Shown here: positions 128 through 57,797 of the stretch, piece by piece
How positions within the stretch are numbered: the first letter of the stretch is position 1
How the letters are laid out: the number at the start of each line of letters is the position of its first letter
Source: a virus
Lineage: Duplodnaviria > Caudoviricetes
Virus record (IMG/VR): IMGVR_UViG_3300045838_000006
Coordinates: 1-60,072 of that record
DNA: 60,072 nt
Reading direction: 5' to 3' (one strand)
Made by a program: the position numbers and the translations under genes
The notes under the pieces: generated by a model
Seen by the model: only the letters and a program-made list of their open reading frames with translations
Told to the model about the DNA's origin: nothing
Databases searched by the model: none

Positions 128-169
128 TGCTCGCAGACCTGGAAGATGAAATCGAGGCGAGGGCGCGTC

Positions 170-841
170 ATGCCTGAGTTCTTTGATTGCGAACAAGGCA
201 GCCCCGAATGGTTCGCTATTCGCGCCGGCATTCCCACAGCCTCCGAATTCGCCACGGTGCTCGCGCAAGGTAAGGGCAGTAATCCAAGCGCCACGCGCAA
301 AACCTACATGCTCAAGCTCGCGGGCGAGATCCTGACCGGCGCTCCGATGGAGAACTATTCCAATATCCATATGGAGCGGGGCAAAACCCTAGAGCCCGAA
401 GCCCGCGACCTGTACGCACTCTATCATGAAATAGAGCCGGACAGAATAGGTTTCATCAAGAACGGCAACGCAGGATGTAGTCCTGACTCGCTGCTCAGCC
501 CGAACGGGTTACTGGAAATAAAGACAGCTTTACCGCATCTGCATTTGGATATACTATTAAAAGGCGAGTTTCCTCCGCAGCACAAAGCGCAGTGCCAGGG
601 CAATTTGTGGATCGCGGAGCGGGAATGGATTGACCTCGCCGTTTACTGGCCGGGACTGCCCTTATTCGTGAAACGTGCTTATCGAGATGAGCAATACATC
701 CGCGACCTCTCAAGGGCCGTGGATACGTTCAATGCCGAACTCGCAGACATCGTTGAAAAGGTCCGCGCCTGCGGACAACCGCAACCGACATTCCGGCAAC
801 AGCTTCAAGCGTCACTCGCCGAATTGGAGGCGCATCCATGA
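170..841 (+). CDS. YqaJ/lambda-exonuclease family recombination nuclease
   Basis: QGSPEWFAIRAGIPTASEF, RGKTLEPEAR, GCSPDSL, LLEIKT and QCQ motifs. Confidence 0.92.
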   Translation: MPEFFDCEQGSPEWFAIRAGIPTASEFATVLAQGKGSNPSATRKTYMLKLAGEILTGAPMENYSNIHMERGKTLEPEARDLYALYHEIEPDRIGFIKNGNAGCSPDSLLSPNGLLEIKTALPHLHLDILLKGEFPPQHKAQCQGNLWIAEREWIDLAVYWPGLPLFVKRAYRDEQYIRDLSRAVDTFNAELADIVEKVRACGQPQPTFRQQLQASLAELEAHP

Positions 842-1635
842 CCTACCCCTCAGAGATCGCCCAAGCGATCATCAAGGTAAAGAAGCAGATCAAGCAGCTC
901 GGCGTGAATGAAAAGAACACGCACGGCGGATATGCTTATGTCAGCGTCGATAAATTCTATGATCATATCGGCAAGTTGATGGCAGAAGCCGGGCTTGCGC
1001 TCTTGATCGACGAGACTAGCAGTGAGGTCAAAGAGGGCGGCAAGAGCGGCGCGCCCTGGCTGTTCGCTCAGTACGGTCTCCAGTTTGTCCATGAGAGCGG
1101 GGCCATAGCTGAGCCGCTGCACCGAACGTTGGCGATGCCGATCAGTGGACCGCAAACCTACGGGGCCGCCCAAAGCTACATTGAGAAGCAGTTTCTCCGG
1201 CAGGTCTTCAAGATACCTACTGGCGAAAAGGACGCTGACGATACGGCGCAAGATGATGCGCCACCCCCTCGGCACGCCGGCATGGTCCGCGCTGCCGATG
1301 TCCCGCCACGCCCGCATGTACGGGAAGCGTGGAGCGAGCCCTCTACGAGCGAGCCGCCCGGCCCGCGCCCTACCTCCACGGCACCTTCCCATACCCATAC
1401 CCGAAACGGTACTGGTAACGGTGATGCGACAATGTCGGTTCAGCAGAAAGCCGAAGCCTATCGCGACGCAATGAAAGCCAACTTCGGTAAATGCAAGTTG
1501 CCATCTGACGTGGACACCCTCATCGCCAACAACACGAAGGCCATAGAGGGCGTAAAGAAACTCGCGCCCGAGATTTACGCAGAGATTATGACAATGGCGA
1601 CGAACGCCAAGAACGAAATGTACACCAATGCCTGA
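838..1635 (+). CDS. ERF-family single-strand annealing protein
   Basis: KNTHGGYAY and QTYGAAQSYIEKQFLRQVFKIPTGEKDAD motifs; adjacent to the exonuclease. Confidence 0.88.
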   Translation: MTYPSEIAQAIIKVKKQIKQLGVNEKNTHGGYAYVSVDKFYDHIGKLMAEAGLALLIDETSSEVKEGGKSGAPWLFAQYGLQFVHESGAIAEPLHRTLAMPISGPQTYGAAQSYIEKQFLRQVFKIPTGEKDADDTAQDDAPPPRHAGMVRAADVPPRPHVREAWSEPSTSEPPGPRPTSTAPSHTHTRNGTGNGDATMSVQQKAEAYRDAMKANFGKCKLPSDVDTLIANNTKAIEGVKKLAPEIYAEIMTMATNAKNEMYTNA

Positions 1636-2135: not shown

Positions 2136-2489
2136 ATGTTGCCGCCTAAGAGAACCCGCCCCCGCAGCGGAATCCTCCGCGCCCCGCCGCGCGAGTTTCC
2201 CCGGCATCGGAAATTCGTGCGCTCGTTTGTCTGCGCCGTGCCCGGTTGCGGAAAGCCTGCGGTATGCGCTCACCTTCGGACCGCGGCAAACTCAGGCAGA
2301 GCTCTTAGGCCTGCCGATTGGTTCACCGTCCCATTGTGCAACGATCATCATGCCGAGCAAGAAGGACGCACCGGATCGTTCTGCAAAAAATACGGCGTGG
2401 ATCTGTGGGCGCTTGCCGCCGAGCTGGCGCGCAAGTCTCCCGACCTAAAGATGCGGGAAGCGATGCGTGCCACAGCGCACGTCGAATGA
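2136..2489 (+). CDS. DUF968-like putative HNH/zinc-binding nuclease
   Basis: CAVPGC...AHLR...DWFTVPLCNDHHAEQ. Confidence 0.75.
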   Translation: MLPPKRTRPRSGILRAPPREFPRHRKFVRSFVCAVPGCGKPAVCAHLRTAANSGRALRPADWFTVPLCNDHHAEQEGRTGSFCKKYGVDLWALAAELARKSPDLKMREAMRATAHVE

Positions 2490-2515
2490 ATTCTAGGTGA
2501 AGGGATTGCGCACCG

Positions 2516-3034
2516 ATGAATCCAGATACCAGCGTATCACCCGGCGATCGGGAGCCGACCTCCTCCGAGGCCAGCGCGCGGGGGGATGCCCTCAGTTTGT
2601 GGCGCGACCTGTGCGAGAAGGACGATCGCACGTCGCCGGAAGATTATCCCGACATGGCGCTCATTACCGAAGACGAATTTGTCTACGTCTTCAATGCTGG
2701 CGGTAAGGCGTGGCAGGAGCGCGCCGCCACAGCCGAGCGGGAGAGGGACGCTGCGGTTGCGACGTACGAGGATGAAGAGGCCGCGCATCAAGATACGTTA
2801 CGGCTGTGGAAAGAAGCGGCAAACGAGCGCGACCAGCTCCGCGCCCAACTCACCGAGGCGAAGAAGGTGGTGGCGCAGGCGCGTCGAGCGCGCGCGGTTA
2901 TCGGCTTCGATTTGCGCGACAAGATTGAGTGGGGGCCAAACTATAACCAAGCCGTAAAAGATATATACGATCGGTTAACAGCGACCCTCGCCGCCTACGA
3001 CGCCGCACACCCGGAGAATAGCGATGACCGATAG
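2516..3034 (+). CDS. Hypothetical coiled-coil protein
   Basis: ORF whose ATG lies at the end of a boundary repeat. Confidence 0.7.
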   Translation: MNPDTSVSPGDREPTSSEASARGDALSLWRDLCEKDDRTSPEDYPDMALITEDEFVYVFNAGGKAWQERAATAERERDAAVATYEDEEAAHQDTLRLWKEAANERDQLRAQLTEAKKVVAQARRARAVIGFDLRDKIEWGPNYNQAVKDIYDRLTATLAAYDAAHPENSDDR

Positions 3035-3275: not shown

Positions 3276-3325
3276 CATGATTCTTTTGTCGAAATTCCTG
3301 TTCGGTGTTTGAGGGAGGAGCCAAG

Positions 3326-3994
3326 ATGACAGAGCAACCGTCGGTGGCGACGCTGTATCCGGCCGATGACGAGGACTTTGTGGAAACGCCAATCACGGGC
3401 GTTAAGCCCAGCGGCAAAAGCTGGGCGATCCAACAGCAACGCGGCTGGTATCTCTATTGCGGCGACGATTGCCCGATAGAGCCAAAGGTCGGAATGATCG
3501 CGCGCCTGTATCCGAGAGATAACATCGGGCGACGCATTCGCGGCCTATTCATCGACGGGCAATGTTGTTGGTATCGCAGCGAGGCTGACGACAAAGACTA
3601 TCGCGAAATCCAGATGTACGGCAAAGATGCTGCGGATTGGTTGCGGCGCTGGGATGCGGGCGAAGGCGTGTGGTCAATCGAGATGGGCGGGCCCGGGCCG
3701 GGCTATGAACAGTGCATTCACATAACCTGCGCCGAAATTCTGCGCTGGTTTATCGACAACAACGTAGACGCGACGCTTTGGGACGAGAAGGACACAGCGC
3801 GCTCGATCTTCGATCGGATGGAGAAAGCGGTCTCTGAGGTTCCGGCCGTCAAGAAGCTCGGTCTATCGGGAGCGCAATGGGGCGCGGCACACAATCTCGC
3901 CTGTCAATTCTATCGGAGAGGACCGCGCGCCGTGATGCTGGATGAGCGGGTGAAGGAACGGCATATCCAGGTCTGCCGCGTGTTCCCCGGCTAA
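3326..3994 (+). CDS. Hypothetical protein (repeat-flanked cassette)
   Basis: GGAGGAG RBS and ATG lie inside the reverse repeat 3279-3349; forward repeat at 4001-4064. Confidence 0.8.
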   Translation: MTEQPSVATLYPADDEDFVETPITGVKPSGKSWAIQQQRGWYLYCGDDCPIEPKVGMIARLYPRDNIGRRIRGLFIDGQCCWYRSEADDKDYREIQMYGKDAADWLRRWDAGEGVWSIEMGGPGPGYEQCIHITCAEILRWFIDNNVDATLWDEKDTARSIFDRMEKAVSEVPAVKKLGLSGAQWGAAHNLACQFYRRGPRAVMLDERVKERHIQVCRVFPG

Positions 3995-4134
3995 CAACGT
4001 CGCCACCGCGCACGTCCTATGAACCTACGCGATGCGTCGACCGAAATGTCCTTCGAGTAAATAACAATGTTGGATCGTGACCCTCATCGGTACGGCTATG
4101 GCTGAGCCCTCCTTCCCGCAGCGCGAGAGCCGCC

Positions 4135-4317
4135 GTGGCTGAGCGGCGGCCCGTCTTTCGCCAACGTGACATTGATCGCGCCATAGCGGCAGCGAAGGCG
4201 GCGGGCCTGGAGGTTATTGGCGTCCGCGTAGACAAAGACGGGTTCGAGATTAAGACTGCGCCCCCAGGCCAATCACGACAGGCGGGGGCGAACGAATGGG
4301 ACGAGGACTACTCGTGA
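4135..4317 (+). CDS. Small integrase-associated protein (putative excisionase)
   Basis: FRQRDIDRAIAAAKAAGLEV...NEWD; overlaps the integrase start. Confidence 0.6.
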   Translation: MAERRPVFRQRDIDRAIAAAKAAGLEVIGVRVDKDGFEIKTAPPGQSRQAGANEWDEDYS

Positions 4318-5315
4318 GGCTGCCCTACGTCCATACTTTCCGCGACCGGCACGGCAAGGTGCGCCACTATTTCCGGCGGCCTGGTTACAAGCGGATCGCG
4401 CTGCCGGGCGCGCCGAGCTCCACGGAGTTCAAGGCCGCCTACGCAGCCGCGCTCTCGGGCCACAAACTCGAAATAGGGGAGGGGAGATCCCTGAGCGGCA
4501 CCGTGACCGCAGCGATAGCCGCCTATTACCAGGACGCCTCATTCCGCGCCTTAGCGCCAGCTACGCAGAAGATGCGCCGGGCGATCCTTGAACGTTGGCG
4601 CGAGCGCGACGGCGACAAGCGGCTGGCGACCCTGGAGCCAAAGCATATCGCGTTGATGCTCGGCAGGATGAAACCCTTTGCCGCGCGCAACTGGCTCAAG
4701 ACGCTACGCGGGCTGATGGAGTTCGCCGTGCGCACCCGGCTGCGGCGAGACGATCCCACGCGCGCCTTCAAGCCGGTCAAGGTCAGGCCCGGCACTTTTC
4801 ACACATGGACCGAAGATGAGATCGCGCAATATGAACGCCATCATGCGGTGGGGACACGCGCAAGGCTGGCAATGGCGCTCCTTCTTTACACGGCGGCGCG
4901 GCGAGGCGATATGGTTAGGCTCGGCCCGCAGCATGTCCGTGCCGGGCGGATTAGTTATCGTCAGCAGAAAACGGGACGGGCGCTGGCGATCCCGTTACAT
5001 CCCTCGCTCGCCGATGAACTCTCGCATCATCCGGCTGAACATCTCACGTTCCTGACCACGGCACGAGGCGCACCGTTCTCGGCGGCCGGCTTTGGCAATA
5101 TGTTCCGTCGCTGGTGCAATGAGGCTGGTCTGCCGCATTGCTCAGCGCACGGCTTGCGGAAAGCTCAGGCGCGCCGTCTCGCGGAGGCGGGTTGCTCCGC
5201 GCATGAAATTGCGTCGATTACCGGGCATAGGACGCTTGCGGAGGTTCAGCGGTATGCTGATGCCGCCGATCAAGCGAGGCTCGCCGAGCGGGCCATAGAC
5301 AAGACGAGGAAATGA
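4314..5315 (+). CDS. int: Tyrosine recombinase/integrase
   Basis: Catalytic R (TAARRGD), K (QQKTG), HGLRK, TGH and Y (QRYAD); N-terminal DRHGKVRHYFRR domain. Confidence 0.95.
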   Translation: MRLPYVHTFRDRHGKVRHYFRRPGYKRIALPGAPSSTEFKAAYAAALSGHKLEIGEGRSLSGTVTAAIAAYYQDASFRALAPATQKMRRAILERWRERDGDKRLATLEPKHIALMLGRMKPFAARNWLKTLRGLMEFAVRTRLRRDDPTRAFKPVKVRPGTFHTWTEDEIAQYERHHAVGTRARLAMALLLYTAARRGDMVRLGPQHVRAGRISYRQQKTGRALAIPLHPSLADELSHHPAEHLTFLTTARGAPFSAAGFGNMFRRWCNEAGLPHCSAHGLRKAQARRLAEAGCSAHEIASITGHRTLAEVQRYADAADQARLAERAIDKTRK

Positions 5316-5863: not shown

Positions 5864-6049
5864 CGTTCTGACATCAACCGGGAGAGTCAGCGCCCTACGA
5901 AAGCAACCCGGCATCTGCGCGCCAAAGGCTTGCGGTTCGGGCTGGCAAACCCCTTCCTCTTATCGCCTCCCGGCACCCAAAGTTTTTAGGGCAAAGGATC
6001 GGCGTTCGACGCGGTGCGTGCGCCCATGCGCCGGGGCTGTGGCGCGGTG

Positions 6050-7384
6050 ATGCGCGGCGGCACCTTGTTCAGCGGCATCGGCGCGCCGGAGTGCGCGGCC
6101 CCCTTCATTGATTGGCGCTGGGCTGCCGAGATCGATCCGTTCGCGAGCGCCGTCCACGCGCATCGCTTCCCCGACACCGTGAACCTTGGCGATGTGACAG
6201 AGATTGATCCCGATGCAATTGAGCCTGTGGACCTCATCGTGTTCGGATCGCCCTGCCAATCGTTCAGCGTCGCCGGAAAGCGGCTCGGACTGGATGACCC
6301 GCGCGGCAACCTGGCCCTCGTCGCCCTTGCGCTTATTGGACGCCTTCGGCCCCGTTGGGTGGTTTTCGAGAACGTGCCCGGCCTCCTGTCATCGGACGAA
6401 GGACGGGACTTTGGCATCTTCCTCGGGCTCCTGGGGCAATGCGGGTATGGGTTCGCCTACCGAATTCTTGACGCTCAGCATTTCGGAGTTCCCCAGCGGC
6501 GGCGCCGCGTCTTCGTTGTCGGATATCTTGGAGACTGGCGACCTGCCGCAGCGGTACTTTTTGAGCCCGAAAGCCTGCGCGGGGATCCTCCGCCGCGCCG
6601 AGAAGCGGGGGAGAGAGTTGCCGCCAGCCTTACGCACGGCGTTGATGGCGGCGGCAAGGGCGGATACGCAGGACGCAGGCGCGAGGACGATGTAAACCTA
6701 ATCGCCCCAACGCTGCCCGCTCGCAAGACGGCGGCGGGCGGCGGTATGGGAACCGACTTTGACTGCGACGGCGGGCTGATCGCCAAGAGCATTCGGGGTC
6801 GCGCACAACCCTCGCACCGCGAGGACAGCGACACATACATCGCCGTCTTCGGCGGCAACCGCCAGTCGGGCGAGATTGAAGTCGCCACGGCGGTCAACGC
6901 GCATGGCGGGCCGCATGGCCGGCTCGATTTCGAGAGCGAGACCTTTGTCGCACACGCGCTCGATGCGTACAGCGCGGGGCGGGCAACGGAAGACGGCACC
7001 GGGAGAGGGACGCCGCTCGTCGCACACGCGCACATGGGTTCGCGTCGCCAAAATGGCGTCGCTATTGGCCCCGTGTGCCCTGGTGGAGACACGTCGAAAA
7101 GCTACTGGAAAGAGATAGAAGTAGCGCGCACCCTCGCCGTTGAAAATCTGCCCTATCAAGGCACCCGCGTCGCATATCCCAATATGAGCGTCCGCAGGCT
7201 CACGCCCCGCGAATGCGAACGCTTGCAGGGCTTCCCCGATAATTGGACGGCCGTAACCTACCGGGGCAAGGCCGCCGCCGATGGACCGCGCTACCGCGCC
7301 CTGGGGAACAGCATGGCGGTCCCGGTCGTGCGATGGATACTGGAGCGCATCGTTGAATTTGCGCGACAGAGAGAAGCCGCATGA
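6050..7384 (+). CDS. C5-cytosine DNA methyltransferase
   Basis: LFSGIG (I), GSPCQSFS (IV), ENVPG (VI), QRRRRVF (VIII), RRLTPRECERLQGFP (IX), ALGNSM (X). Confidence 0.95.
   Translation: MRGGTLFSGIGAPECAAPFIDWRWAAEIDPFASAVHAHRFPDTVNLGDVTEIDPDAIEPVDLIVFGSPCQSFSVAGKRLGLDDPRGNLALVALALIGRLRPRWVVFENVPGLLSSDEGRDFGIFLGLLGQCGYGFAYRILDAQHFGVPQRRRRVFVVGYLGDWRPAAAVLFEPESLRGDPPPRREAGERVAASLTHGVDGGGKGGYAGRRREDDVNLIAPTLPARKTAAGGGMGTDFDCDGGLIAKSIRGRAQPSHREDSDTYIAVFGGNRQSGEIEVATAVNAHGGPHGRLDFESETFVAHALDAYSAGRATEDGTGRGTPLVAHAHMGSRRQNGVAIGPVCPGGDTSKSYWKEIEVARTLAVENLPYQGTRVAYPNMSVRRLTPRECERLQGFPDNWTAVTYRGKAAADGPRYRALGNSMAVPVVRWILERIVEFARQREAA
6213..6695 (+). CDS. Nested out-of-frame ORF resembling the M.EcoHK31I beta polypeptide
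   Basis: SSGSWGNAG..ISEFPS..SSLSDILET..RYFLSPKACAGILRRAEKRGRELPPAL in the +1 frame. Confidence 0.6.
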   Translation: MQLSLWTSSCSDRPANRSASPESGSDWMTRAATWPSSPLRLLDAFGPVGWFSRTCPASCHRTKDGTLASSSGSWGNAGMGSPTEFLTLSISEFPSGGAASSLSDILETGDLPQRYFLSPKACAGILRRAEKRGRELPPALRTALMAAARADTQDAGARTM

Positions 7385-7466
7385 CCCCGGCAGGACGGGC
7401 ATGCTGACCCCCAACCATGATTTTATTGTCGAAGCACCGCATCGGTGCGCAATCGGAGGAGTTCTA

Positions 7467-7766
7467 ATGGCCGACGACGTGCGCGGTGGCGAGGCCGCTC
7501 CCCTGAGACATTACGCGCGAGGTCGATTTGACGGCAGTATCGAAATCGTTGATCGCCAGTTCGATTTTGTCCGGGCGATACTTCCCTATGATTACAGGTT
7601 CACATGCAGCGCCGACCAACACGCCCATGCCGAACGTATTTGTCAGGCGTTAGAAGGGCCTATGGCCTCGCGTGGCGTCGTTCGAATCGCCACAGCTACG
7701 GGGCCTGACAATCTTGGCTCCTCAGAGGGCGCACCGATGCCGTCTTTCGAGAAAAAACCCGCATGA
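7467..7766 (+). CDS. Hypothetical protein (repeat-flanked cassette)
   Basis: GGAGGAG and ATG inside repeat 7419-7491; C-terminus encoded by repeat 7688-7757. Confidence 0.7.
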   Translation: MADDVRGGEAAPLRHYARGRFDGSIEIVDRQFDFVRAILPYDYRFTCSADQHAHAERICQALEGPMASRGVVRIATATGPDNLGSSEGAPMPSFEKKPA

Positions 7767-7794
7767 GCATCGGCTCAACCAACCCGGAGTTCAC

Positions 7795-8226
7795 ATGACG
7801 ATCGGTGGCGACGTTTGGAAGTGCTTTCACTGCGGAGAGACATTCACCGACACCGAGAGCGCGAGGTTGCATTTCGGCGACAACTGTCTGAGCGATCCCG
7901 CTTGCCAGATCGACATCAAGCAAGTGCGCGAAATGGAGCAGCTACACGCTCGCCATCTTGCGGAGGACAGCGACACAGACCGCGCTATGTATCGGATGCA
8001 GGCAGAGCACGCCGTTGCTCTGCGGTGCGAGGAAGAGATCGGCTATGCGCGTGGCCTACACGACGGCAAACGATACTGGATCGAGCAGTTCGTCACGCAA
8101 ATCCTTCACGGCGACGAGACGCATCGGCAATGGTTGCGGGACAAGGGCGAGGAATTCGTTGTCGCCACCGACGGGTCGGCTGACAATCCAGGGACAGAAG
8201 ACTTTGGGGATAAGGATCGGTGTTAG
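7795..8226 (+). CDS. Hypothetical zinc-finger protein (repeat-flanked cassette)
   Basis: WKCFHCGETF...ARLHFG. Confidence 0.75.
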   Translation: MTIGGDVWKCFHCGETFTDTESARLHFGDNCLSDPACQIDIKQVREMEQLHARHLAEDSDTDRAMYRMQAEHAVALRCEEEIGYARGLHDGKRYWIEQFVTQILHGDETHRQWLRDKGEEFVVATDGSADNPGTEDFGDKDRC

Positions 8227-9008
8227 ACAACGAACCAAGATCGTCTCGCAACCCGGCTGTGGCACGGCCGAACCGCTCGTCCGAAGAGATGCGGATGCGA
8301 GAGATTGTCGCCGCGCGGCTCCGCTCTTTCTGGCCCACGGCGCGGATCATCCATGAACTGCCGGTCAGATATTCGACCAACCGGCTCGATATGGCGGCGA
8401 TCACGGAAACTGAATTGATCGGGGTCGAGATCAAATCGTCACGCGACGTGCTGGGCCGTCTAGAGGCGCAGATACGCGCTTTTATGCCTGTCACGCATCG
8501 GCTCTGGGTCTGTCTCGCCCCGGAGCACAACGCGAAACTGCCTGATATTGTCGAGGAGCGCGAGCGCTCGATTCATTACCGCCGACAATTCACTCCGGCG
8601 CAAGAGATCATCGAGCGTGTCGCGGATCGCTGGGTCGAGGTTTGGACCGTCGATGCTGACGCGGGTGAATCGTTCGGCACGCGCGGCGGGTATCTGAGCC
8701 AATGGGATCATCGCATCCCCTGGGGCGCAGCGATGCTCGATATGCTCTGGAATAGCGAATTGGCCGCGATGGGAGGTTCAAATTCTCGACACGACCATCA
8801 AGTGCGCCGCCTCGCTGATGCGATGACCGGCTGCGAGATTGTGCGCGGTGTATGCGCGGCGCTTCGTGCCAGGGACGCATTCGCGGCGGAATCCGACCCG
8901 CCGATCCGAGGCGATGTTTTCGCCACCGCACAAGGCGTGTGTCGCCTAGGTACATCGCCGAACACCGAGTCGATCTTCGAGAATAAAACGACCTCTGACC
9001 CCGGTTGA
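8220..9008 (+). CDS. PD-(D/E)XK nuclease-fold protein, sce7726-like
   Basis: IIHELPV..RLDMAAI..GVEIKSSRDVLGRLEAQI. Confidence 0.7.
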   Translation: MLDNEPRSSRNPAVARPNRSSEEMRMREIVAARLRSFWPTARIIHELPVRYSTNRLDMAAITETELIGVEIKSSRDVLGRLEAQIRAFMPVTHRLWVCLAPEHNAKLPDIVEERERSIHYRRQFTPAQEIIERVADRWVEVWTVDADAGESFGTRGGYLSQWDHRIPWGAAMLDMLWNSELAAMGGSNSRHDHQVRRLADAMTGCEIVRGVCAALRARDAFAAESDPPIRGDVFATAQGVCRLGTSPNTESIFENKTTSDPG

Positions 9009-9012
9009 GCGC

Positions 9013-9192
9013 ATGACCCAGGATACCGACCAACCCGCTGTGGACGTAACGCACCCCGATTATTGCCGTCATTGGGAGCCGGCAGGCTGCAAACTCGGCT
9101 TAGCTTGTGCGTGCTCATGGTTCGGCACGAAGAAACCGTGGAGAGCGCGCATCACCCCCGCTACGGGGCGCGATAATCTGGACCGGAGATGA
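9013..9192 (+). CDS. Small Cys-rich hypothetical protein
   Basis: MTQDTDQPAVDVTHPDYCRHW..CKLGLACAC; ATG inside repeat 9001-9044. Confidence 0.5.
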   Translation: MTQDTDQPAVDVTHPDYCRHWEPAGCKLGLACACSWFGTKKPWRARITPATGRDNLDRR

Positions 9193-9195
9193 GGG

Positions 9196-9483
9196 ATGAG
9201 CGGCTGGATTGATCCTCTCGGAACGCGAGCATTGCACCGTTTCATTCAAGCCGAGCAACATCGGCTAGAGCCGCTAATTGCAGAAGGGTATCGGCGCTGG
9301 CCGAAAAGCCGGAAGCTGTCGAAGCTCCGCGCCCGATATGATGAGCTTGGGAAGCTCCACGCTTTAATCCAAGCCGTCGAGAGACCAGGCATCGAGCTGC
9401 TGCCGTACAAAGAACTGGTGAATGTGCGCGACCGGCATGATCTGATTGACGCGCTCGTGCCACGCGATTTGATGACGCAATGA
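9196..9483 (+). CDS. Hypothetical protein
   Basis: ORF with RBS; followed by a boundary repeat. Confidence 0.65.
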   Translation: MSGWIDPLGTRALHRFIQAEQHRLEPLIAEGYRRWPKSRKLSKLRARYDELGKLHALIQAVERPGIELLPYKELVNVRDRHDLIDALVPRDLMTQ

Positions 9484-9566
9484 CAGCCTCGCCACCGATT
9501 GTCGAGTGAGGATCTAAGCTGAAACGATTGGCACCGTCGAATGAACTCTAGGTGAAGGGATGAAGG

Positions 9567-9761
9567 ATGAGCGGCACTCCGCTGTATTTGCTCGGAGCGG
9601 CGATAATAGGCGGCATTATAGGCCATTATGGCGTGCCACTCACATACGACGATCCGTGGCAATTCTTCTTGGGAGGGCTTGGGCTCTGGATTTGGGGCGG
9701 CTTTCTCGATGCCCTGCTGCTACGACCTCGCCACCGATCGTCGCCTGACGGCCTAAGTTAA
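9567..9761 (+). CDS. Small two-TM membrane protein
   Basis: Two hydrophobic segments. Confidence 0.65.
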   Translation: MSGTPLYLLGAAIIGGIIGHYGVPLTYDDPWQFFLGGLGLWIWGGFLDALLLRPRHRSSPDGLS

Positions 9762-9821
9762 AATGATGGCGCACCGAAAATGATGGCGCACCGAAAAATC
9801 GCTTCGACAAAAGGAATCTCG

Positions 9822-10070
9822 ATGATCCGCACCTTGTATGCTGCTCTTGCGATCTTCCTCTCAGGGGGACAAGCCGGGGCCGGAGGTCTGCCATATCCTT
9901 GGCCGAACCGCGATGAGGCGGCGCCCGTTGGTCGTGAAGTCCCGACGCTAAATCAAAGTGTCGTCACAAATACATCGCAGCCGAGTTGCGAGCCCGGGTG
10001 GCATCTAGTGCTCGATGCGCCGTGGGGGCCAAAGTGCGCCCGCGAACTCAAGGAGCCGATCTACAAATGA
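9822..10070 (+). CDS. Small secreted protein
   Basis: Signal-like N-terminus; Cys pair (CEPGW..KCAR). Confidence 0.65.
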   Translation: MIRTLYAALAIFLSGGQAGAGGLPYPWPNRDEAAPVGREVPTLNQSVVTNTSQPSCEPGWHLVLDAPWGPKCARELKEPIYK

Positions 10071-10636: not shown

Positions 10637-10637
10637 G

Positions 10638-10793
10638 ATGGAAATGCAATACTACACCGAGGACGGCGTTTATACCAAGAAAGAGTGGGCTGAAAAGCTC
10701 CAACGGGATCGGATCGAATTGCTGCTGGAGCTGATCTGCGACCAACTCAGCATCGACTATCCCGAAAAAGAAAAAGGCCGCCAGCCCGGTTAA
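10638..10793 (+). CDS. Small hypothetical protein
   Basis: 51-aa ORF directly after the preceding stop. Confidence 0.5.
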   Translation: MEMQYYTEDGVYTKKEWAEKLQRDRIELLLELICDQLSIDYPEKEKGRQPG

Positions 10794-10805
10794 AGGCCAG
10801 CGGCG
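10765..10805 (-). terminator. Putative rho-independent terminator (minus strand)
   Basis: Minus strand GCCGCTGGCC..GGCTGGCGGC followed by CTTTTTCTTTTT. Confidence 0.5.
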
Positions 10806-11140
10806 CTCTCTCTGAGTCCGGTAGGGATTTGCTGTCGCAGTGATCGATTCTACCGGCGCACCACGATCTCGCCACGACATGATTCGTGGCAAACTATATC
10901 ACCGGATACAGTCATTTGTCACCCTCAGAATGCCTCGCTCATCATGGCAATGATACGAATCCCATCCGTTCGGGATAAACTCGACATGGCAGCATCGAGG
11001 ATCGGAGATCAGGGTATCGGGCGGTTTGGGGTTGGAACAGGAAGCGAGAGAGAGTAGGATAATCAGCGGCGCTACTGGCGTGCTCGCTTGGCGGAACGGC
11101 AGAGGGAATTATCCGGTTGACGTACCAGGATTCTCACAGT

Positions 11141-49659: not shown

Positions 49660-49874
49660 TCTTCCATCCCGAGCTGAGCCCGTGCTGCCAATCGGGCTGC
49701 CTTGCGAATGCGCCGCCAGAATTTGCGCTTCACCCACGACCATTGCCCGGCACGCGAGCCCAATATGCGCCGAGCGCGGCGGCTCGACATATCGCATTCA
49801 TCCCCGCCAACGGGCCGATCCCTTCCAACCGTGCCACCGACGGGGCTTATGAGGCTATGCGAGTTGTCTAACAC
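49656..49874 (-). CDS. Small Arg-rich protein
   Basis: GTG start inside a boundary repeat (MLDN..); GGDECD..SRRARR..KRKFWRRIRK. Confidence 0.55.
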   Translation of the reverse strand: MLDNSHSLISPVGGTVGRDRPVGGDECDMSSRRARRILGSRAGQWSWVKRKFWRRIRKAARLAARAQLGMEE

Positions 49875-49887
49875 CGATTCTTCCCCA

Positions 49888-50370
49888 TCAACTTCCGTCA
49901 AAGCCGAGCTGAGCCCGTGCTTGTGACATCTCTTCGGGCGTCCATTCTCTCGCTTTGACACCAAGGGCTTGCGCTGGTGTCTGAAAACCCTTCAGAGCTT
50001 GTTGCCCAGCTTGGCTATTGCGCCATTCTTCAGCCGCTGCATAGCGAGCCATGTTCCGCGCGATCGCATCGTGCCGGTCGCTCCATGAGGTAAACCCAAC
50101 CGAGCGCGCGTAATGATCCCGCGCCATTGAGGCAACATGCTGATCTCGGGTACGCTCGGCGATCTCTCTCCGCTTCCGTGCAATCGCGGCATCAATGAGC
50201 CCCTGATTGTACCACGCACCATCCGGATCGCACGGCGAGGTCATCTGGACAATGCCGAGATAGACGCACCGAAACGCGTAGACATCAGCGTGCCATTCCC
50301 ATTTTTCGGCCTGCGACAACTGCGAGTACGGGCGGCGGTCCTGTGGGCCTGTCGGGTGTGAATCCGGCAT
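49888..50370 (-). CDS. Hypothetical protein
   Basis: ORF after the replication gene; start uncertain. Confidence 0.5.
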   Translation of the reverse strand: MPDSHPTGPQDRRPYSQLSQAEKWEWHADVYAFRCVYLGIVQMTSPCDPDGAWYNQGLIDAAIARKRREIAERTRDQHVASMARDHYARSVGFTSWSDRHDAIARNMARYAAAEEWRNSQAGQQALKGFQTPAQALGVKAREWTPEEMSQARAQLGFDGS

Positions 50371-51580: not shown

Positions 51581-52785
51581 GCGTTGCTCTTTTCGTCGAA
51601 GGACATTTCGGTGTTCGACCGCTCGCCTCGTTCCATAGGAAGATTCGCTGTGGCGAAAAGCGGCCCAGCATCGCTCTTGCGGTTCCGGTTCTTCACGGTG
51701 ACGGAATGCCGCCCCTCGCCCTCATAGAATGCCAACCGCTCTTTGATGTCGGCGATGTATTGTGCTTCTCGTTCGATCAGAATGCAGTCACGCCCGGTCG
51801 CTAAAGCTGCAACCCCCGTTGTCCCGGAACCTGCAAACGGATCCAACACCAATCCGCCAGGAGGCGTAACCAATGGGACGAGCCACTTCATCAATTCAAC
51901 GGGCTTCACGGTAGGATGACGCGAGCCCCAGCGATCTTCTTTGTCGGCTTTGGCGCTGTAGAAGAAACGAGCCGCAGAGCCGCTGTCACCGTGCGGCGTG
52001 GCGACCTCTTGCTCGCCGAAATTGCCATAAATGCCATTGCTCTTCTTGGGTAGCTTTGGACGCTCGTATAACTGCCCCGGTGCATCCGGAAACCCCTCTA
52101 GCACTTCCTCGCTGCCGTCGTGGCAGATGTTGGCGGGCCAGCGGCCTATATTAGGATCGAGGTCGTGTATTGTTCCGTCGCGAATACCGCCATTATAAAT
52201 GTGCGGCATCTTATTCTTTGAGAGCGATGCGGGGACACCACGATTGGTGCCAATCCGACACTCATCCACCTGTAGCGTTCTCTTGCCTCCTGGCTTATAG
52301 GCCAAGACAATCGGCTCGTAGGCTGGCTTGAGCATGTCCCGGCGTTTCGGGAATCCACTGCCAAATAGCCACATGATGCAGTCTTGAATGATGAACCCGG
52401 CATCCTCGATTGCCGTTGTCAGACGGTGATAGGTCCGCGTTCCCCCAAAGGCGACAAGGAACGCACCGGGCCGCATGACGTTGGCGATCGTGGCCCATGT
52501 CTTAGGCTGAAATGCGATGTCGCCGCCGTCCCACTGTTGCCCCATAAAGCCAGAAGCGAGCCGCTGGTAATGATTGGTCCCGTCGCTATTGCGTGGCCCC
52601 GGAGCGCCGAACGCGCCGCCAAAGCGCTTCGTCATGTCCGTTAAGTGATAGGGCGGATCGGTCACAACCGCATCGACAGTCGGGAGATGCGGGGCGATCG
52701 CTCGACAGTCACCGTGATAAAGCTCGGCGCCGCCAAACCGTGCCACAGCGCAACCCGTGTGAGATCTTGGCTCGTTGTCTAACAC
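51577..52785 (-). CDS. N6-adenine/N4-cytosine DNA methyltransferase (beta class)
   Basis: VTDPPY..HPTVKP..VLDPFAGSGTTG. Confidence 0.93.
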   Translation of the reverse strand: MLDNEPRSHTGCAVARFGGAELYHGDCRAIAPHLPTVDAVVTDPPYHLTDMTKRFGGAFGAPGPRNSDGTNHYQRLASGFMGQQWDGGDIAFQPKTWATIANVMRPGAFLVAFGGTRTYHRLTTAIEDAGFIIQDCIMWLFGSGFPKRRDMLKPAYEPIVLAYKPGGKRTLQVDECRIGTNRGVPASLSKNKMPHIYNGGIRDGTIHDLDPNIGRWPANICHDGSEEVLEGFPDAPGQLYERPKLPKKSNGIYGNFGEQEVATPHGDSGSAARFFYSAKADKEDRWGSRHPTVKPVELMKWLVPLVTPPGGLVLDPFAGSGTTGVAALATGRDCILIEREAQYIADIKERLAFYEGEGRHSVTVKNRNRKSDAGPLFATANLPMERGERSNTEMSFDEKSNA

Positions 52786-52791
52786 CGATTC

Positions 52792-52989
52792 TTATCCCCC
52801 AAATGCCCGATGAAGGGCCGCACACGCGAACATGAAAGCAAATGGCGCAATGGCTAAGAACGCACCCCACACCGTTGCGCGCCAATCACTCTGCATCCAC
52901 CACGGTGAGGGTTCGTTCTTCACAAACGGCGTTGATCCTGTTAGCCGACAATCGGCCTGCATATCCCCTGTCCCTGACTCACTTGCCAT
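52792..52989 (-). CDS. Small membrane protein
   Basis: C-terminal TM segment. Confidence 0.5.
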   Translation of the reverse strand: MASESGTGDMQADCRLTGSTPFVKNEPSPWWMQSDWRATVWGAFLAIAPFAFMFACAALHRAFGG

Positions 52990-53311: not shown

Positions 53312-53923
53312 CTAATCCTCTGCATGATCCACGCTAGACCTAAGGCTATCCACTGAAGGAGATTCTTCACCCTTTCCCCCAAGGTGAATGTTTTTGTCGA
53401 AAGACGGTATCGGTGTTCCAACTGAGGAGCCCGGATTGTCAGGCAACCCGGCTGTGGCGAGGTAGCGGGCGCGTGCCGCAACTTTCGTGCCGCCATCTGA
53501 GCTTGGTCTAACGCCAGTAACCCGCACTAAGAAGTTCCATGCCGGCGGCCGTCCGCGCCCGGTGTAATGCCACAGGTCTTTAACGCGCCTTTCCGTCAAT
53601 TGGCGCTGTTTGAATAAGCGCATCCAAATGGCGTTCTGCACTGCTTGATAAGTTACTGGTAGGGATTTCGCTATTCGCGTCCATGTCCAATTCGCCATTC
53701 GGCGTTGCATCGCCCAATCAATTTCAGCCTCACTCAGTTCAGGAAGCGGCACTCCGCACGACATGCTGAGCAGGCCAATCTGGCCGAGCGAGCCAAGAAC
53801 CCGCTCTATAGCGTCATATGCAAGTCTAGCCTCCGCATCGTTTTCGAAGGTGATCGTCACTACCGGCGGCCCTTTCGGCCGCCGGACCACAGCCCCGGCG
53901 TCAGACAATCTAGGCTGGCTCAT
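53312..53923 (-). CDS. Hypothetical HTH-containing protein (repeat-flanked cassette)
   Basis: WTWTRIAKSLPVTYQAVQN; repeats at both ends. Confidence 0.65.
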   Translation of the reverse strand: MSQPRLSDAGAVVRRPKGPPVVTITFENDAEARLAYDAIERVLGSLGQIGLLSMSCGVPLPELSEAEIDWAMQRRMANWTWTRIAKSLPVTYQAVQNAIWMRLFKQRQLTERRVKDLWHYTGRGRPPAWNFLVRVTGVRPSSDGGTKVAARARYLATAGLPDNPGSSVGTPIPSFDKNIHLGGKGEESPSVDSLRSSVDHAED

Positions 53924-54252: not shown

Positions 54253-54501
54253 TTACTCCTCCCCCGATAGGGCTGTGCTGTCGCCCTCGCTGATATTTGC
54301 CGCAGGCGCATCGGTGTTCGACGTGTCACCTGGAATACGCACGACGATCGGTGGCGAGAATTTCATGCGGCGGTGCCGATCAATGCCAAGAGCTGGCCGA
54401 AATTCCCATTCGCTCCATTCGGCAACAGTCAGGACGTAAGGCTTGCCGCCGCGCCATCTGATAGACGCAGCGCATTGCTCCTTACTGCGCGGCATGTTCA
54501 C
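54253..54501 (-). CDS. Hypothetical protein
   Basis: C-terminus encoded by a boundary repeat. Confidence 0.5.
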   Translation of the reverse strand: MNMPRSKEQCAASIRWRGGKPYVLTVAEWSEWEFRPALGIDRHRRMKFSPPIVVRIPGDTSNTDAPAANISEGDSTALSGEE

Positions 54502-55387
54502 TCACTCCTGTAGAGATACCGGATTCGATCTCCAGTTCACCGGGGACGAGCCACGCGCTCCAATCTTCTTCCTCACCGTCAAACTCGGCGAGCGCATGAG
54601 CCAAGTTCAATTCCGAGCCGACAAGCGTACCTGGCTCATAGCTGCGGATATGTCGGCGCGCGGCTTCGATGACCTTGATCGCGCGCTCCCAAAGCGCGTC
54701 GCGAGCGGCTTCTCTATCCACAGCCCCCTTCTCGTGAACTCCGGGCTCGGGGTCGAACACCGATGCGCCTGCGGCAAAAGCAACGTTAGCGGCGCGAACA
54801 TCCTCTGCGAATGGGGTTTCACTAAAAAGGACGGTTCCTATTCCACGCTCGGAACCGTCAACGGCGCACGCAGTTTCATCCTCGACAGAGAGAGAATGTT
54901 CTGTGGAAGCCTCGACCGCCCCTCCCCCAAGGGGCGGATCACCCGCAGAGGCAGGAGTAGCCTGCGGGGGTTCTGTGAGATCTTCGTATTCCACATCGGT
55001 GACGGTGGGCTTGGCTTTCGGCGCTTTTGGAGGAGCAAGACGAGCTACATCGGCACGCTCCATGCCTGGGTTGATTTCACCAGCTTTGATCCCCTGCTCG
55101 AATTGCGCATCTTCAAGCCGTGTCAGCTCCCAAAGTGTGTACCAGGACGCCGGCAAAAGCGTCGCATGCGACGCAATTCGTTTGTCTTTGGAAATCGCCA
55201 TAAGACGTTGCGCGGTGCGTTTCTTGAACGGCAACTCGTTCTCGATCATCCGCTCGAAATCGCCATGCGGGATGAGTTTCTTCGCCTCCATCAAGAGACG
55301 GCCGGTTTCCAGAATGCCGTCGATGGACGACTGCCACGCGGCGGCGATCCGGTTCGCCCAAACTTTTGTCCCGAGAGACAGAGCCAT
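54482..55387 (-). CDS. DUF3102-domain protein
   Basis: ILETGRLLMEAK..PHGDF..LPFKKRTAQRLM. Confidence 0.75.
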   Translation of the reverse strand: MALSLGTKVWANRIAAAWQSSIDGILETGRLLMEAKKLIPHGDFERMIENELPFKKRTAQRLMAISKDKRIASHATLLPASWYTLWELTRLEDAQFEQGIKAGEINPGMERADVARLAPPKAPKAKPTVTDVEYEDLTEPPQATPASAGDPPLGGGAVEASTEHSLSVEDETACAVDGSERGIGTVLFSETPFAEDVRAANVAFAAGASVFDPEPGVHEKGAVDREAARDALWERAIKVIEAARRHIRSYEPGTLVGSELNLAHALAEFDGEEEDWSAWLVPGELEIESGISTGVSEHAAQ

Positions 55388-57694: not shown

Positions 57695-57797
57695 TGCCCG
57701 TCCGTCTTGATCCGCCCCACCGCTTTATTTCTTGCGCGGCATCGGTGTTCGACGCGTCACCAAGATTGTCACACAACCCGGCTGTGGAGAGGTAGTC

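What the first reader, a model, noticed from the sequence alone, without database searches (positions are those of the whole stretch)
7419..9816. Tandem cassette array whose junctions fold into ~105-125-nt hairpins with GTT-type cores
Seen: between consecutive genes a forward copy abuts a reverse copy (7688-7810, 8163-8267, 8921-9044). This gives imperfect palindromes such as gccaccgacgggtcggctgacaatccagg ... ccaagatcgtctcgcaacccggctgtggc. Many arms contain TCGGT-GTTAGAC or TCGGT-GTTCGAC. Established: GTTAGAC fits the GTTRRRY core of integron attC sites, which recombine as single-strand hairpins. Unlike attC, the ACCGA/TCGGT spacers here pair, long outer arms exist, and there is no IntI-type integrase. 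Inference: a convergent, attC-like hairpin recombination site.
Basis: partly seen in the sequence, partly recalled or inferred. Interest (0 to 1): 0.8.

Follow-up and report, generated by a model that had tools for sequence, protein, structure and literature searches.

The report
Inverted boundary repeats around phage genes
A soil phage carries about twenty copies of a roughly 70-base repeat that sit in facing pairs around its optional genes; they probably mark spots where genes are swapped, but they do not fold into integron-like hairpins.

Summary
The window is a complete circular ~60-kb temperate phage genome. The three abutting forward/reverse repeat pairs are real, and are part of a family of about 21 half-elements of ~65-75 nt. 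Each has a CGCCACMG box, a ~30-nt variable spacer and a TCKAACACCGAT box, often followed by TTCGAsAAAA. All copies lie in the two early/accessory arms.

- Junction folds are no better than shuffles, as RNA or as ssDNA on either strand.
- Arms of one junction are no more complementary than any two family members.
- There is no RYYYAAC...GTTRRRY core pair.
- There is no IntI.

What holds is a strict polarity. The CGCCAC box faces the gene body at both gene ends in 21 of 21 copies, so single accessory genes are bracketed by inverted copies. Two other metagenome contigs carry the same bracket around different genes. One low-depth contig joins two half-elements across the sce7726-family gene.

Best reading (0.42): double-stranded boundary elements where accessory genes are exchanged, closest in role to PeSLs. 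Earlier notes of this scan describe similar inverted arms in other soil phages (unchecked).

The parts
2466..2526 (+). Half-element at the 3' end of ORF 1992-2489. Its CACCGATG box holds the ATG of the next ORF (2516).
   Evidence: nhmmer E 1e-8
3279..3351 (-). Half-element at the 5' end of ORF 3305-3994. It carries the Shine-Dalgarno sequence and the ATG.
   Evidence: E 1.6e-10
3999..4066 (+). Half-element lying directly after the stop (3994) of ORF 3305-3994.
   Evidence: E 3.4e-7
5979..6046 (-). Half-element at the 5' end of the C5 DNA methyltransferase gene (6014-7384).
   Evidence: E 5.7e-6
7418..7493 (-). Half-element at the 5' end of X1 (7467-7766).
   Evidence: E 5.3e-9; inverted repeat I1 with 7718-7757
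7687..7759 (+). Half-element at the 3' end of X1; left arm of junction A.
   Evidence: E 1.8e-10; also found by the profile built from the other arm
7770..7811 (-). Truncated half-element at the 5' end of X2 (7795-8226); right arm of junction A.
   Evidence: E 0.29 alone; CGCCAC-box half 81% identical to 54358-
8162..8192 (+). CGCCAC-box half of a half-element at the 3' end of X2; left arm of junction B.
   Evidence: E 0.23 alone; 84% identical to 53461- over 31 nt
8201..8266 (-). Half-element at the 5' end of X3 (sce7726-family gene, 8220 or 8259 to 9008); right arm of junction B. It contains the X2 stop codon.
   Evidence: E 1.9e-10
8920..8991 (+). Half-element at the 3' end of X3; left arm of junction C. 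It encodes a 33-aa tail that is absent from 7 homologues.
   Evidence: E 7.8e-11
8995..9046 (-). Degenerate half-element at the 5' end of X4 (9013-9192); right arm of junction C.
   Evidence: Direct repeat D5; alignments
9152..9190 (+). Degenerate half-element at the 3' end of X4.
   Evidence: Direct repeats D1 and D3; not aligned by the profile
9487..9550 (+). Half-element directly after the stop (9483) of X5 (9196-9483); not translated.
   Evidence: E 8.8e-6
9727..9793 (+). Half-element at the 3' end of X6 (9567-9761). Its CACCGA box is duplicated by a 17-nt tandem repeat (9760-9793).
   Evidence: E 2.8e-6; direct repeat D6
49830..49892 (+). Half-element at the 5' end of the minus-strand ORF 49874-49657.
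   Evidence: E 3.2e-8
51585..51657 (-). Half-element at the 3' end of the N6/N4 DNA methyltransferase gene (52785-51577).
   Evidence: E 9.5e-10
52739..52805 (+). Half-element at the 5' end of the N6/N4 methyltransferase gene. It matches 8206-8242 with 2 differences.
   Evidence: E 1e-11; (record 5)
53389..53461 (-). Half-element in the 3' part of minus-strand ORF 53935-53312.
   Evidence: E 4.6e-11; 79% identical to 7687+ over 70 nt
54289..54358 (-). Half-element at the 3' end of minus-strand ORF 54495-54253.
   Evidence: E 3.3e-10; perfect 27-nt inverted repeat with 54752-54778
54714..54785 (+). Half-element embedded in minus-strand ORF 55387-54482, in the 5'-end orientation. It looks like the start module of a gene that became fused to the ORF upstream.
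   Evidence: E 1.5e-5, not in the seed
57724..57792 (-). Half-element just upstream of plus-strand ORF 57798-58106.
   Evidence: E 5.5e-8, not in the seed
4296..5315 (+). Tyrosine integrase, the only site-specific recombinase found in the genome; ordinary phage type, not IntI.
   Evidence: PF00589 2.4e-19; phrog_1; no TIGR02249 match
146..1635 (+). YqaJ-like exonuclease (146-841) and ERF single-strand annealing protein (838-1635): the phage's own recombination pair.
   Evidence: PF09588 7.8e-17 and PF04404 5.1e-16

Best explanation
The junction 'palindromes' are not functional hairpins. They arise because two units of one dispersed family lie back to back. The unit is a bipartite, double-stranded ~65-75-bp boundary element: a CGCCACMG box, a ~30-bp variable spacer, and a TCKAACACCGAT box with a variable tail. 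The element always points its CGCCAC box into a gene. An accessory gene therefore sits between two inward-facing copies. The upstream copy carries or precedes the ribosome-binding site and start codon. The downstream copy carries or follows the stop codon.

I propose that these elements mark single-gene slots in the phage's two early/accessory arms, and that accessory genes are gained, lost and replaced by recombination between copies of like orientation, with crossovers in the spacer between the two boxes.

Shown: the family, its restriction to the accessory arms, the polarity rule, the lack of hairpin stability, and the same bracket around different cargo in two other contigs.

Inferred: that exchange happens at the elements, and that the two conserved boxes are recognised by a protein. 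The enzyme is unknown. Candidates are the phage's ERF/YqaJ annealing recombination, which would act only between near-identical copies of co-infecting relatives, or an unidentified sequence-specific nuclease or recombinase.
For: (1) The family is real and confined to 2.4-9.8 kb and 49.8-57.8 kb.
(2) Polarity. With my ORF models, 11 of 11 copies at gene 3' ends run CGCCAC box to CACCGA box along transcription. 9 of 9 at gene 5' ends run the other way, as does the one copy embedded in a gene. Both copies in each of L137 and L187 obey the rule.
(3) The boxes stay nearly invariant while the rest averages about 50% identity, and they are read in different frames or not translated at all. This points to a DNA-level constraint.
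(4) Bracketed cargo is accessory: two DNA methyltransferases, an sce7726-family gene and ORFans. The exonuclease, ERF, integrase, replication initiator and terminase genes are not bracketed.
(5) L137 shares only the integrase with the window (70% over 808 nt), yet has one bracket near it, around an unrelated ORF. L187 has a different integrase and a bracket lying wholly outside a 95-aa ORF.
(6) One contig of a second run of the same sample joins 8197 to 8975 with 20 other letters that read as a CACCGA box. That is one chimeric half-element without X3.
(7) Distant copies share long identical patches: a perfect 27 nt at 54296/54752, and 8206-8242 against the 52.7-kb copy with 2 differences.
(8) The element-encoded 33-aa tail of X3 is absent from 7 homologues.
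Against: - No exchange event was seen directly.
- The joint rests on one contig of depth 2.7 with only 36 letters on its shorter side, in Logan contigs. It could come from another gene that carries a similar element.
- L137 and the window share so little that a common slot cannot be shown, and homology does not start or stop exactly at the elements.
- Copies within the genome are only about 50% identical. That is too diverged for homologous recombination, so a site-specific enzyme must be assumed, and none is identified.
- The two halves of the element are weakly co-inherited (Mantel r 0.195, 114 of 5000 permutations as high), so mosaicism inside the element is not proven.
- No further members turned up in 81 loci around relatives of the integrase and terminase, in IMG/VR pattern scans, or beyond chance in 401 alphaproteobacterial genomes. 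The comparative base is therefore three contigs.
- Conserved boxes fit a purely regulatory binding site equally well.
Confidence: 0.42

Rival explanations
1. The elements are regulatory binding sites on DNA or mRNA for a phage or host factor. Examples would be operators or roadblocks that silence accessory genes in the lysogen, or start-associated translation signals. They flank genes because each gene is controlled separately, and gene exchange at them is incidental.
For: There are two short, nearly invariant boxes in an otherwise variable element. Copies at gene 5' ends carry the Shine-Dalgarno sequence and the start codon. The elements are restricted to the early arms on both sides of the divergent control region near 56.5 kb. 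Precedents of unknown function exist: the SAS/ESAS repeats of Cluster K mycobacteriophages, which are start-associated and have imperfect inverted repeats (PMC3203893, passages).
Against: Half of the copies lie at gene 3' ends in the opposite orientation, where a translation-start signal has no use. No sigma-70-like promoter or terminator-like site overlaps an element. The same element occurs in phages with unrelated early genes and a different integrase, so a shared dedicated regulator is not evident.
Confidence: 0.25
2. Each bracketed gene is a non-autonomous transposable cassette (MIC- or MITE-like). The inverted copies are its terminal inverted repeats, and it is moved in trans by a transposase.
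For: Inverted copies bracket single genes: 7 brackets in the window plus one each in L137 and L187. In L187 the inverted repeat extends about 20 nt beyond the CACCGA box. Mobile insertion cassettes with passenger genes are a known kind (PMC3913671, search listing only).
Against: The only transposase in the genome is IS1595-type, and its terminal repeats at about 11104 and 13265 are unrelated to the element. There is no Y1 or serine recombinase. The outer ends are the least conserved part and fall into at least three unrelated tail types, whereas the most conserved box is the inner one. I saw no target-site duplication around the L137 and L187 brackets by eye.
Confidence: 0.12
3. The abutting copies work as folded single strands. 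They could be attC-like recombination sites, REPIN-like mobile hairpins, or intercistronic RNA hairpins for RNase III processing or translational coupling.
For: Minimum-free-energy folds of junctions B and C are long imperfect hairpins closed by the CGCCAC/GTGGCG boxes. The upstream stop and the downstream start lie inside the junctions. Phages can carry attC sites (PMC9892861, abstract).
Against: z-scores run from -1.23 to +1.86 in 13 folds, none below -2. Arms of a junction are no more complementary than random family pairs. The 17-sequence alignment has no consensus structure. Only 6 of 21 copies lie in abutting pairs, and the brackets in L137 and L187 have no abutting partner. There is no inverse core pair, no IntI, no Y1 transposase and no Rfam match.
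Confidence: 0.05
4. The repeats are decaying relics of serial duplications of one ancestral gene boundary and have no present function.
For: Mean identity between copies is only about 50%. Several copies are truncated or degenerate: 7770-7811, 8162-8192, 8995-9046 and 9152-9190.
Against: Two boxes stay nearly invariant across about 21 copies and in two foreign contigs. The polarity rule has no exception. Identical patches between distant copies point to recent events.
Confidence: 0.08

Closest known systems
PeSL (promoter-early stem-loop) cassettes of T4-type phages (Arbiol et al. 2010, PMC2839356: abstract and section 13 read; Comeau et al. 2014, PMC4122927: search listing only)
   Same: Both are short, repeated composite motifs at the borders of non-essential genes and ORFans, concentrated in the plastic parts of a phage genome. 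Both span the upstream stop and the downstream Shine-Dalgarno sequence and start codon. Both are proposed as sites of modular shuffling.
   Different: PeSLs are sigma-70 promoters plus a stable terminator stem-loop, all co-oriented with transcription. Here no promoter- or terminator-like site overlaps an element and no stable fold exists. Each gene carries two copies in inverted orientation. Mini-circles and promoter activity were shown for PeSLs; nothing was shown experimentally here.
dif modules of Acinetobacter plasmids (pdif sites, XerC/XerD; PMC13141974: passages read; PMC6449649: search listing only)
   Same: Accessory genes form discrete modules bounded by asymmetric sites in inverse orientation. 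Arrays of such modules occur, and modules are shuffled between replicons.
   Different: pdif sites are single 28-bp XerC-spacer-XerD sites shared by neighbouring modules, which therefore alternate in configuration. Here each gene has its own two ~70-bp elements with the same box inward. No dif-like core is in the window (the dif motif was recalled from memory). No Xer-type enzyme beyond the phage integrase was found.
Integron attC sites (features from established knowledge; phage-borne examples in PMC9892861: abstract read)
   Same: Conserved sites lie at the ends of single-gene cassettes arranged in tandem. One copy contains a GTTAGAC that fits GTTRRRY.
   Different: There is no inverse core pair, no fold better than shuffles and no IntI. 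There are two inverted sites per gene instead of one co-oriented site. The conserved boxes lie apically and at the stem base, in the wrong order for R and L boxes.
SAS/ESAS repeats of Cluster K mycobacteriophages (Pope et al. 2011, PMC3203893: passages read)
   Same: Both are repeats of unknown function confined to the non-structural half of a temperate phage genome. Both are tied to translation starts of a subset of genes belonging to different families. Both include imperfect inverted repeats.
   Different: SAS is a 13-bp motif in one orientation just upstream of starts, and ESAS is a pair of 17-bp inverted repeats 4-13 bp apart. Here the unit is ~70 bp and also stands, inverted, at gene 3' ends. 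The sequences are unrelated.
REP/REPIN elements with RAYT transposases, and mobile insertion cassettes (recalled from general knowledge; PMC3913671: search listing only)
   Same: Both kinds are intergenic repeats found as inverted doublets or as inverted ends around passenger genes.
   Different: There is no Y1 transposase and no stable hairpin. The elements were not found above chance in 401 alphaproteobacterial genomes. The IS1595 ends are unrelated to them.

Membership tests
Integron attC site | Inverse core RYYYAAC and core GTTRRRY at the two ends of one 57-141-nt site | tested here: not met
   In 7300-9900 there are 0 such pairs at 55-145 nt on either strand; 500 shuffles give a mean of 0.26. 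The single GTTAGAC at 8222 has no partner.
Integron attC site | Single strand folds into a stable hairpin with conserved extrahelical bases | tested here: not met
   As ssDNA, z-scores run from -1.23 to +0.30 for 3 junctions on 2 strands. As RNA, z-scores run from -0.91 to +1.86 for 7 boundaries. Extrahelical bases could not be assessed because no stable stem exists.
Integron attC site | One site per cassette, all in the same orientation, at the 3' end | tested here: not met
   There are two inverted copies per gene: 11 at 3' ends, 9 at 5' ends and 1 embedded in a gene.
Integron attC site | An IntI-type integrase in the element | tested here: not met
   TIGR02249 has no match in the genome and is not among the integrase's NCBIfam hits. 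The one tyrosine recombinase matches phage integrase families.
Integron attC site | Score with the IntegronFinder attC covariance model | not testable with these tools
   The model is not available here. Rfam at gathering thresholds gives 0 matches in the window.
PeSL-type regulatory cassette | Sigma-70-like early promoter inside the motif | tested here: not met
   There are 5 promoter-like sites in 2000-11500 (shuffles give a mean of 3.2), and none overlaps an element. This is a consensus scan only.
PeSL-type regulatory cassette | Stable stem-loop acting as a terminator | tested here: not met
   There are 12 terminator-like sites (shuffles give a mean of 7.9), and none lies in an element. RNAalifold finds no consensus structure.
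PeSL-type regulatory cassette | Sits at borders of non-essential genes in plastic regions and spans the upstream stop and the downstream Shine-Dalgarno sequence and start | tested here: met
PeSL-type regulatory cassette | Recombination between copies causes gene gain, loss or replacement | tested here: inconclusive
   There is one low-depth contig joint, 8197 to 8975. The same bracket surrounds different cargo in L137 and L187. No close relative was available.
dif module (pdif/XerCD) | 28-bp XerC arm, 6-bp spacer, XerD arm | tested here: not met
   No match to a recalled dif core at up to 3 mismatches, and no ATAA-N6-TTAT in the window. The motif is recalled, so this is a weak test.
dif module (pdif/XerCD) | Modules bounded by inversely oriented asymmetric sites | tested here: met
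   The polarity rule holds for 21 of 21 copies. This is a resemblance of architecture only.
REP/REPIN with RAYT | Y1 (RAYT) transposase and hairpin-forming inverted doublets | tested here: not met
   PF01797 is absent from the phage and folds are not better than shuffles. The host genome is unknown.
MITE / mobile insertion cassette | Terminal inverted repeats matching those of an autonomous IS, plus target-site duplication | tested here: not met
   The ends of the IS1595-type element at about 11104 and 13265 are unrelated to the repeat. By eye I saw no duplication flanking the L137 and L187 brackets.
SAS/ESAS of Cluster K phages | 13-bp asymmetric motif 1-8 bp upstream of starts, in one orientation | tested here: not met
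   The unit here is ~70 bp, stands at both gene ends in opposite orientations and has an unrelated sequence.

The most novel reading that the evidence does not exclude
These elements are the recombination sites of an undescribed, non-integron gene-cassette system of temperate soil phages. A sequence-specific enzyme recognises the two conserved boxes on double-stranded DNA and exchanges single accessory genes, among them anti-restriction methyltransferases, between phages. The inverted bracket supplies each gene with portable start and stop signals. The neighbouring nuclease-like protein, whose N-terminus copies the integrase's DNA-binding end, could be that enzyme. Notes of this scan on other soil phages (unchecked AI notes) would then describe sister families of one widespread mechanism.
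Probability: 0.22. Interest if true: 0.8.

Novelty: new variant of a known kind. Interest (0 to 1): 0.5.

Why it matters
How phages acquire and swap their many small accessory genes, including anti-defence genes such as DNA methyltransferases, is largely unexplained outside the T4-like phages, where PeSLs were proposed. This phage offers a conserved, polarity-constrained boundary element that brackets single genes and recurs around different cargo in other phages. That would give a concrete and testable handle on the process: defined sites, defined slots and candidate enzymes.

It also serves as a caution. Back-to-back copies of a dispersed repeat look like long hairpins to the eye, and a GTTRRRY match can be a start-codon context. 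Neither survives shuffled controls.

Tried and rejected
- RNA families: Rfam at gathering thresholds gave 0 matches. ARAGORN found 0 tRNAs.
- Hairpins: rejected from the fold z-scores, from RNAalifold giving no pairs and from arm identity.
- Conserved C-terminal peptide tag: considered because several 3' copies read [ILFV]ATA...SNT[DE]..SF[ED]K in frame. Rejected. The CACCGA box is read in different frames, X6 and ORF 54495-54253 use other frames, and the copies at 3999, 9487 and L187 1652 lie after the stop.
- IS1595-derived MITE: rejected because the ends are unrelated.
- Integrase arm-type sites: the stretch downstream of int that the window and L137 share holds no CACCGA box.
- dif-like sites: none found.
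- Sigma-54 promoter in TGGCAC copies: considered by eye and rejected, because the -12 element is not conserved.
- Relatives: 0 element hits in 45 integrase loci, 77 loci in all and 4 genome loci. Cultured phages share only the methyltransferase. The protein search with ORF 20991-22691 against the cultured-phage collection found nothing.
- Pattern scans of IMG/VR: 0, 0, 1, 11 and 16 loci, with none convincing. The best was L221, a single copy at E 5.9e-4.
- 401 alphaproteobacterial genomes: 10 matches against about 16 in the reversed-pattern control, by my count.
- PADLOC on 10 cargo proteins: one weak hit, for X3.
- Sequencing runs: no RNA holder listed. The joints with side 21 were ignored as unreliable.
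- Mosaic test of the element halves: weak and inconclusive.
- Supplementary files of the papers were closed. PeSL supplementary figures and ESAS supplementary alignments were not seen.

Full report
CONTEXT. The 60,072-nt window starts and ends with the same 127 nt. The collection classes the record as having direct terminal repeats and as 100% complete. It is therefore a whole, circularly assembled phage genome of about 59.9 kb.

The plus-strand operon runs from about 56.6 kb across the ends to about 11.4 kb. It holds:
- a YqaJ-like exonuclease (146-841);
- an ERF annealing protein (838-1635);
- a phage integrase (4296-5315);
- a small ORF (5312-5833) whose first 51 residues are 65% identical to the integrase N-terminus;
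- a C5 DNA methyltransferase (6014-7384);
- the small genes of the finding.

The minus-strand operon runs from about 56.4 kb down to 12 kb. It holds early genes, an N6/N4 methyltransferase (51577-52785), a replication initiator, then the terminase, portal, capsid and tail genes. An IS1595-type element lies at about 11.1-13.3 kb. The only sequencing runs that hold the sequence are labelled soil metagenome.

THE OBSERVATION. The three forward-abuts-reverse pairs are in the sequence at the stated places. They belong to a dispersed family. Aligned in one orientation, the copies share:
- a CGCCACMG box;
- a variable spacer of about 30 nt;
- a TCKAACACCGAT box;
- a tail that comes in at least three types (TTCGAsAAAA, TYCTTATCCCC, TGAATCCAGATAC).

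A profile of 15 copies finds 17 places at E <= 1.5e-5, two of them not in the seed. All lie in 2.4-9.8 kb or 49.8-57.8 kb. The 40 kb between has only 5 hits, with E 0.36-7.8. A profile made only from the seven copies of one arm finds three copies in the other arm and nothing in 20 dinucleotide shuffles. Four more copies are truncated or degenerate (7770-7811, 8162-8192, 8995-9046, 9152-9190). That gives about 21 copies in all.

THE HAIRPINS. The junctions were folded as RNA. The three junctions give z = -0.18, -0.91 and -0.54 against 200 dinucleotide-preserving shuffles. Four other boundaries give +0.87 to +1.86. As single-stranded DNA, on both strands, the three junctions give -1.23 to +0.30. 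RNAalifold on 17 half-elements predicts no pair.

On profile-aligned columns, the two arms of one junction are 0.48, 0.65 and 0.47 identical when one is reverse-complemented. All 190 pairs of family members average 0.496 (sd 0.097). The closest relative of each arm lies elsewhere in the genome. For example, 7687+ and 53461- are 79% identical over 70 nt. So there is no compensatory co-evolution of arms and no excess stability.

THE attC RESEMBLANCE.
- In 7300-9900 there are three GTTRRRY and one RYYYAAC on the plus strand, and no pair at attC spacing on either strand.
- The GTTAGAC at 8222 is part of GTG TTA GAC AAC, a string that recurs at two other gene starts, 52785 and 49874 on the minus strand.
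- GTTCGAC does not fit the core formula.
- The genome has one tyrosine recombinase. It matches phage integrase families and has 45 relatives in viral contigs, 30 of them ending within 300 nt of the end of the fetched stretch.
- It does not match the integron-integrase model.
- No Y1 or serine recombinase is present.

WHAT HOLDS: POLARITY. I used my own ORF-based gene models, which are supported by family hits only for some genes. Every copy at a gene 3' end runs from the CGCCAC box to the CACCGA box along transcription (11 of 11; two of these lie just after the stop). Every copy at a gene 5' end runs the other way (9 of 9; one lies just upstream of the start). The one copy embedded in a gene (54714-54785) has the 5'-end orientation and looks like the start module of a gene that became fused to its upstream neighbour.

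Seven genes have both copies: ORF 3305-3994, X1, X2, X3, X4, the N6/N4 methyltransferase, and the 54.3-54.8 kb unit. The abutting 'palindromes' are simply the 3' copy of one gene next to the 5' copy of the next. Only 6 of the 21 copies are arranged that way.

CODING OR DNA-LEVEL? ORFs run into the elements. The copies at 7687+, 8920+, 51657- and 53461- read [ILFV]ATA...SF[ED]-type tails in one frame. However:
- the CACCGA box is read in different frames in different copies;
- X6 and ORF 54495-54253 use other frames;
- the copies at 3999 and 9487 follow the stop;
- in L187 both copies lie outside the ORF.

The X3 protein is of the sce7726 family. Its 33-residue element-encoded tail has no counterpart in 7 aligned homologues. 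The homologues' N-termini suggest that the true start is the GTG inside the CGCCAC box. The constraint is therefore on the DNA or RNA sequence, not on a peptide.

ELSEWHERE. The following searches found no members:
- No family member lies in 81 loci around relatives of the integrase and large terminase.
- None was found in cultured phages at BLASTN sensitivity.
- Five IMG/VR pattern scans gave no convincing hit.
- A two-box pattern in 401 alphaproteobacterial genomes gave 10 matches against about 16 in the reversed control.

It gave mostly chance matches and two real loci.
- L137 is 10,964 nt. Its integrase is 70% identical at the DNA level to the window's, and nothing else is alike. It has one bracket, 3381-3317(-) and 3743-3807(+), around an unrelated 166-aa ORF about 700 nt upstream of the integrase.
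- L187 is 1,803 nt. It has a different integrase, then a tRNA-3'-like fragment, then a bracket, 1362-1301(-) and 1652-1707(+), around a 95-aa ORF. The stop abuts the CCACAG box, and the Shine-Dalgarno sequence and ATG follow the upstream copy.

In both loci the second copy was not selected by the pattern, and it stands in the orientation the rule predicts.

SIGNS OF EXCHANGE. All runs were laid as Logan contigs. One contig from a second run of the same sample joins 8197 to 8975. It skips the 5' copy of X3, the X3 gene and the first half of its 3' copy. Between the two sides it has 20 other letters that begin like a CACCGA box. This is what a single chimeric half-element without the X3 cassette would look like. 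The support is depth 2.7 and 36 letters on the shorter side, so it is a hint, not a demonstration.

Distant copies also share identical patches: a perfect 27 nt at 54296-54322 and 54752-54778, and 8206-8242 against the copy at 52.7 kb with 2 differences. The nearest relative is the same for both halves of the element in only 3 of 17 copies. The halves are still weakly correlated (Mantel r 0.195, 114 of 5000 permutations as high). Mosaicism within the element is therefore suggested, not shown.

MECHANISM. I commit to the reading that these are double-stranded boundary elements marking single-gene slots, and that accessory genes are exchanged at them (confidence 0.42). The conserved boxes imply recognition by a protein. 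Within-genome copies are too diverged (about 50%) for homologous recombination, which would also protect the array from self-deletion. Equivalent copies in co-infecting relatives, however, would be good substrates for the phage's ERF/YqaJ pair. Both the enzyme and the act of exchange are inferred.

The main rival (0.25) is a purely regulatory binding site. Transposable cassettes (0.12), folded single strands (0.05) and functionless relics (0.08) follow.

COMPARISON.
- PeSLs of T4-type phages are closest in role (PMC2839356, abstract and section 13). The elements here have neither promoter nor terminator and come as inverted brackets.
- dif modules of Acinetobacter plasmids are closest in architecture (PMC13141974, passages). 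The window has no dif-like core.
- The SAS/ESAS repeats of Cluster K mycobacteriophages are a precedent for start-associated repeats of unknown function (PMC3203893, passages).
- I found no description of this family in my searches. These were few and keyword-bound, so the claim of novelty is limited to them.
- Notes of this scan report similar inverted 'arms' around accessory genes in other soil phages. They are unchecked AI notes, and look-ups by place and by sequence found no look-alike of this element.

VERDICT. The hairpin and attC-like mechanism is refuted. The cassette-boundary idea remains the best but unproven explanation. I rate it a new variant of a known kind, with interest 0.5.

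Noticed in passing
window 5312-5833: A 173-aa ORF overlaps the integrase stop. Its residues 6-55 are 65% identical to integrase residues 11-61 (E 2e-18). The rest has only a weak PHROG 'endonuclease' hit (E 2.6e-4) and no Pfam or NCBIfam hit. L137, which has a 70%-identical integrase, lacks this ORF.
   Followed up: partly
window 5826-5950 and L137 5570-5750: The two loci share short non-coding strings downstream of the integrase region (such as AAGCCATTGA, AGAGTCA, GCGGTTCGGGC). This is a candidate attP region. It holds no CACCGA box.
   Followed up: partly
window 11104-13265: An IS1595-type element with terminal inverted repeats of about 23 nt. It spans more than the transposase gene (12033-12956).
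   Followed up: partly
window 54443-56425 (+): A 660-aa ORF with no family hit lies antisense to two minus-strand genes that do have PHROG hits (55388-56386 and 54482-55387). It is probably a spurious antisense ORF of a GC-rich genome.
   Followed up: partly
window 8240-8262 versus 52742-52765: The copies at 8266- and 52739+ are nearly identical over about 37 nt. They then differ by an 8-nt string that is the exact reverse complement in one copy of the string in the other (GCAACCCG versus CGGGTTGC), as if a tiny segment had flipped.
   Followed up: no
window 9760-9793: A perfect 17-nt tandem duplication doubles the CACCGA box of the copy at 9727.
   Followed up: no
window 9188-9204 and 9559-9575; 2482-2507 and 9536-9561: The start regions of X5 and X6 share 16 of 17 nt. 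The stretches before ORF 2516 and before X6 share a ~26-nt string containing a Shine-Dalgarno-like AGGTGAAGGGA. This is a second small repeat tied to gene starts.
   Followed up: no
window, several half-elements; L137 and L187 copies: A GANTC site (the target of CcrM-type methyltransferases, recalled) directly follows or overlaps the CACCGA box in about 8 of 17 window copies and in all 4 foreign copies, by eye. The phage encodes an N6/N4 methyltransferase. No statistics were done.
   Followed up: no
L187 1090-1160: A fragment like the 3' end of a tRNA lies directly after the integrase gene of this 1.8-kb contig. It is probably the attachment core, about 150 nt from the bracketed gene.
   Followed up: no
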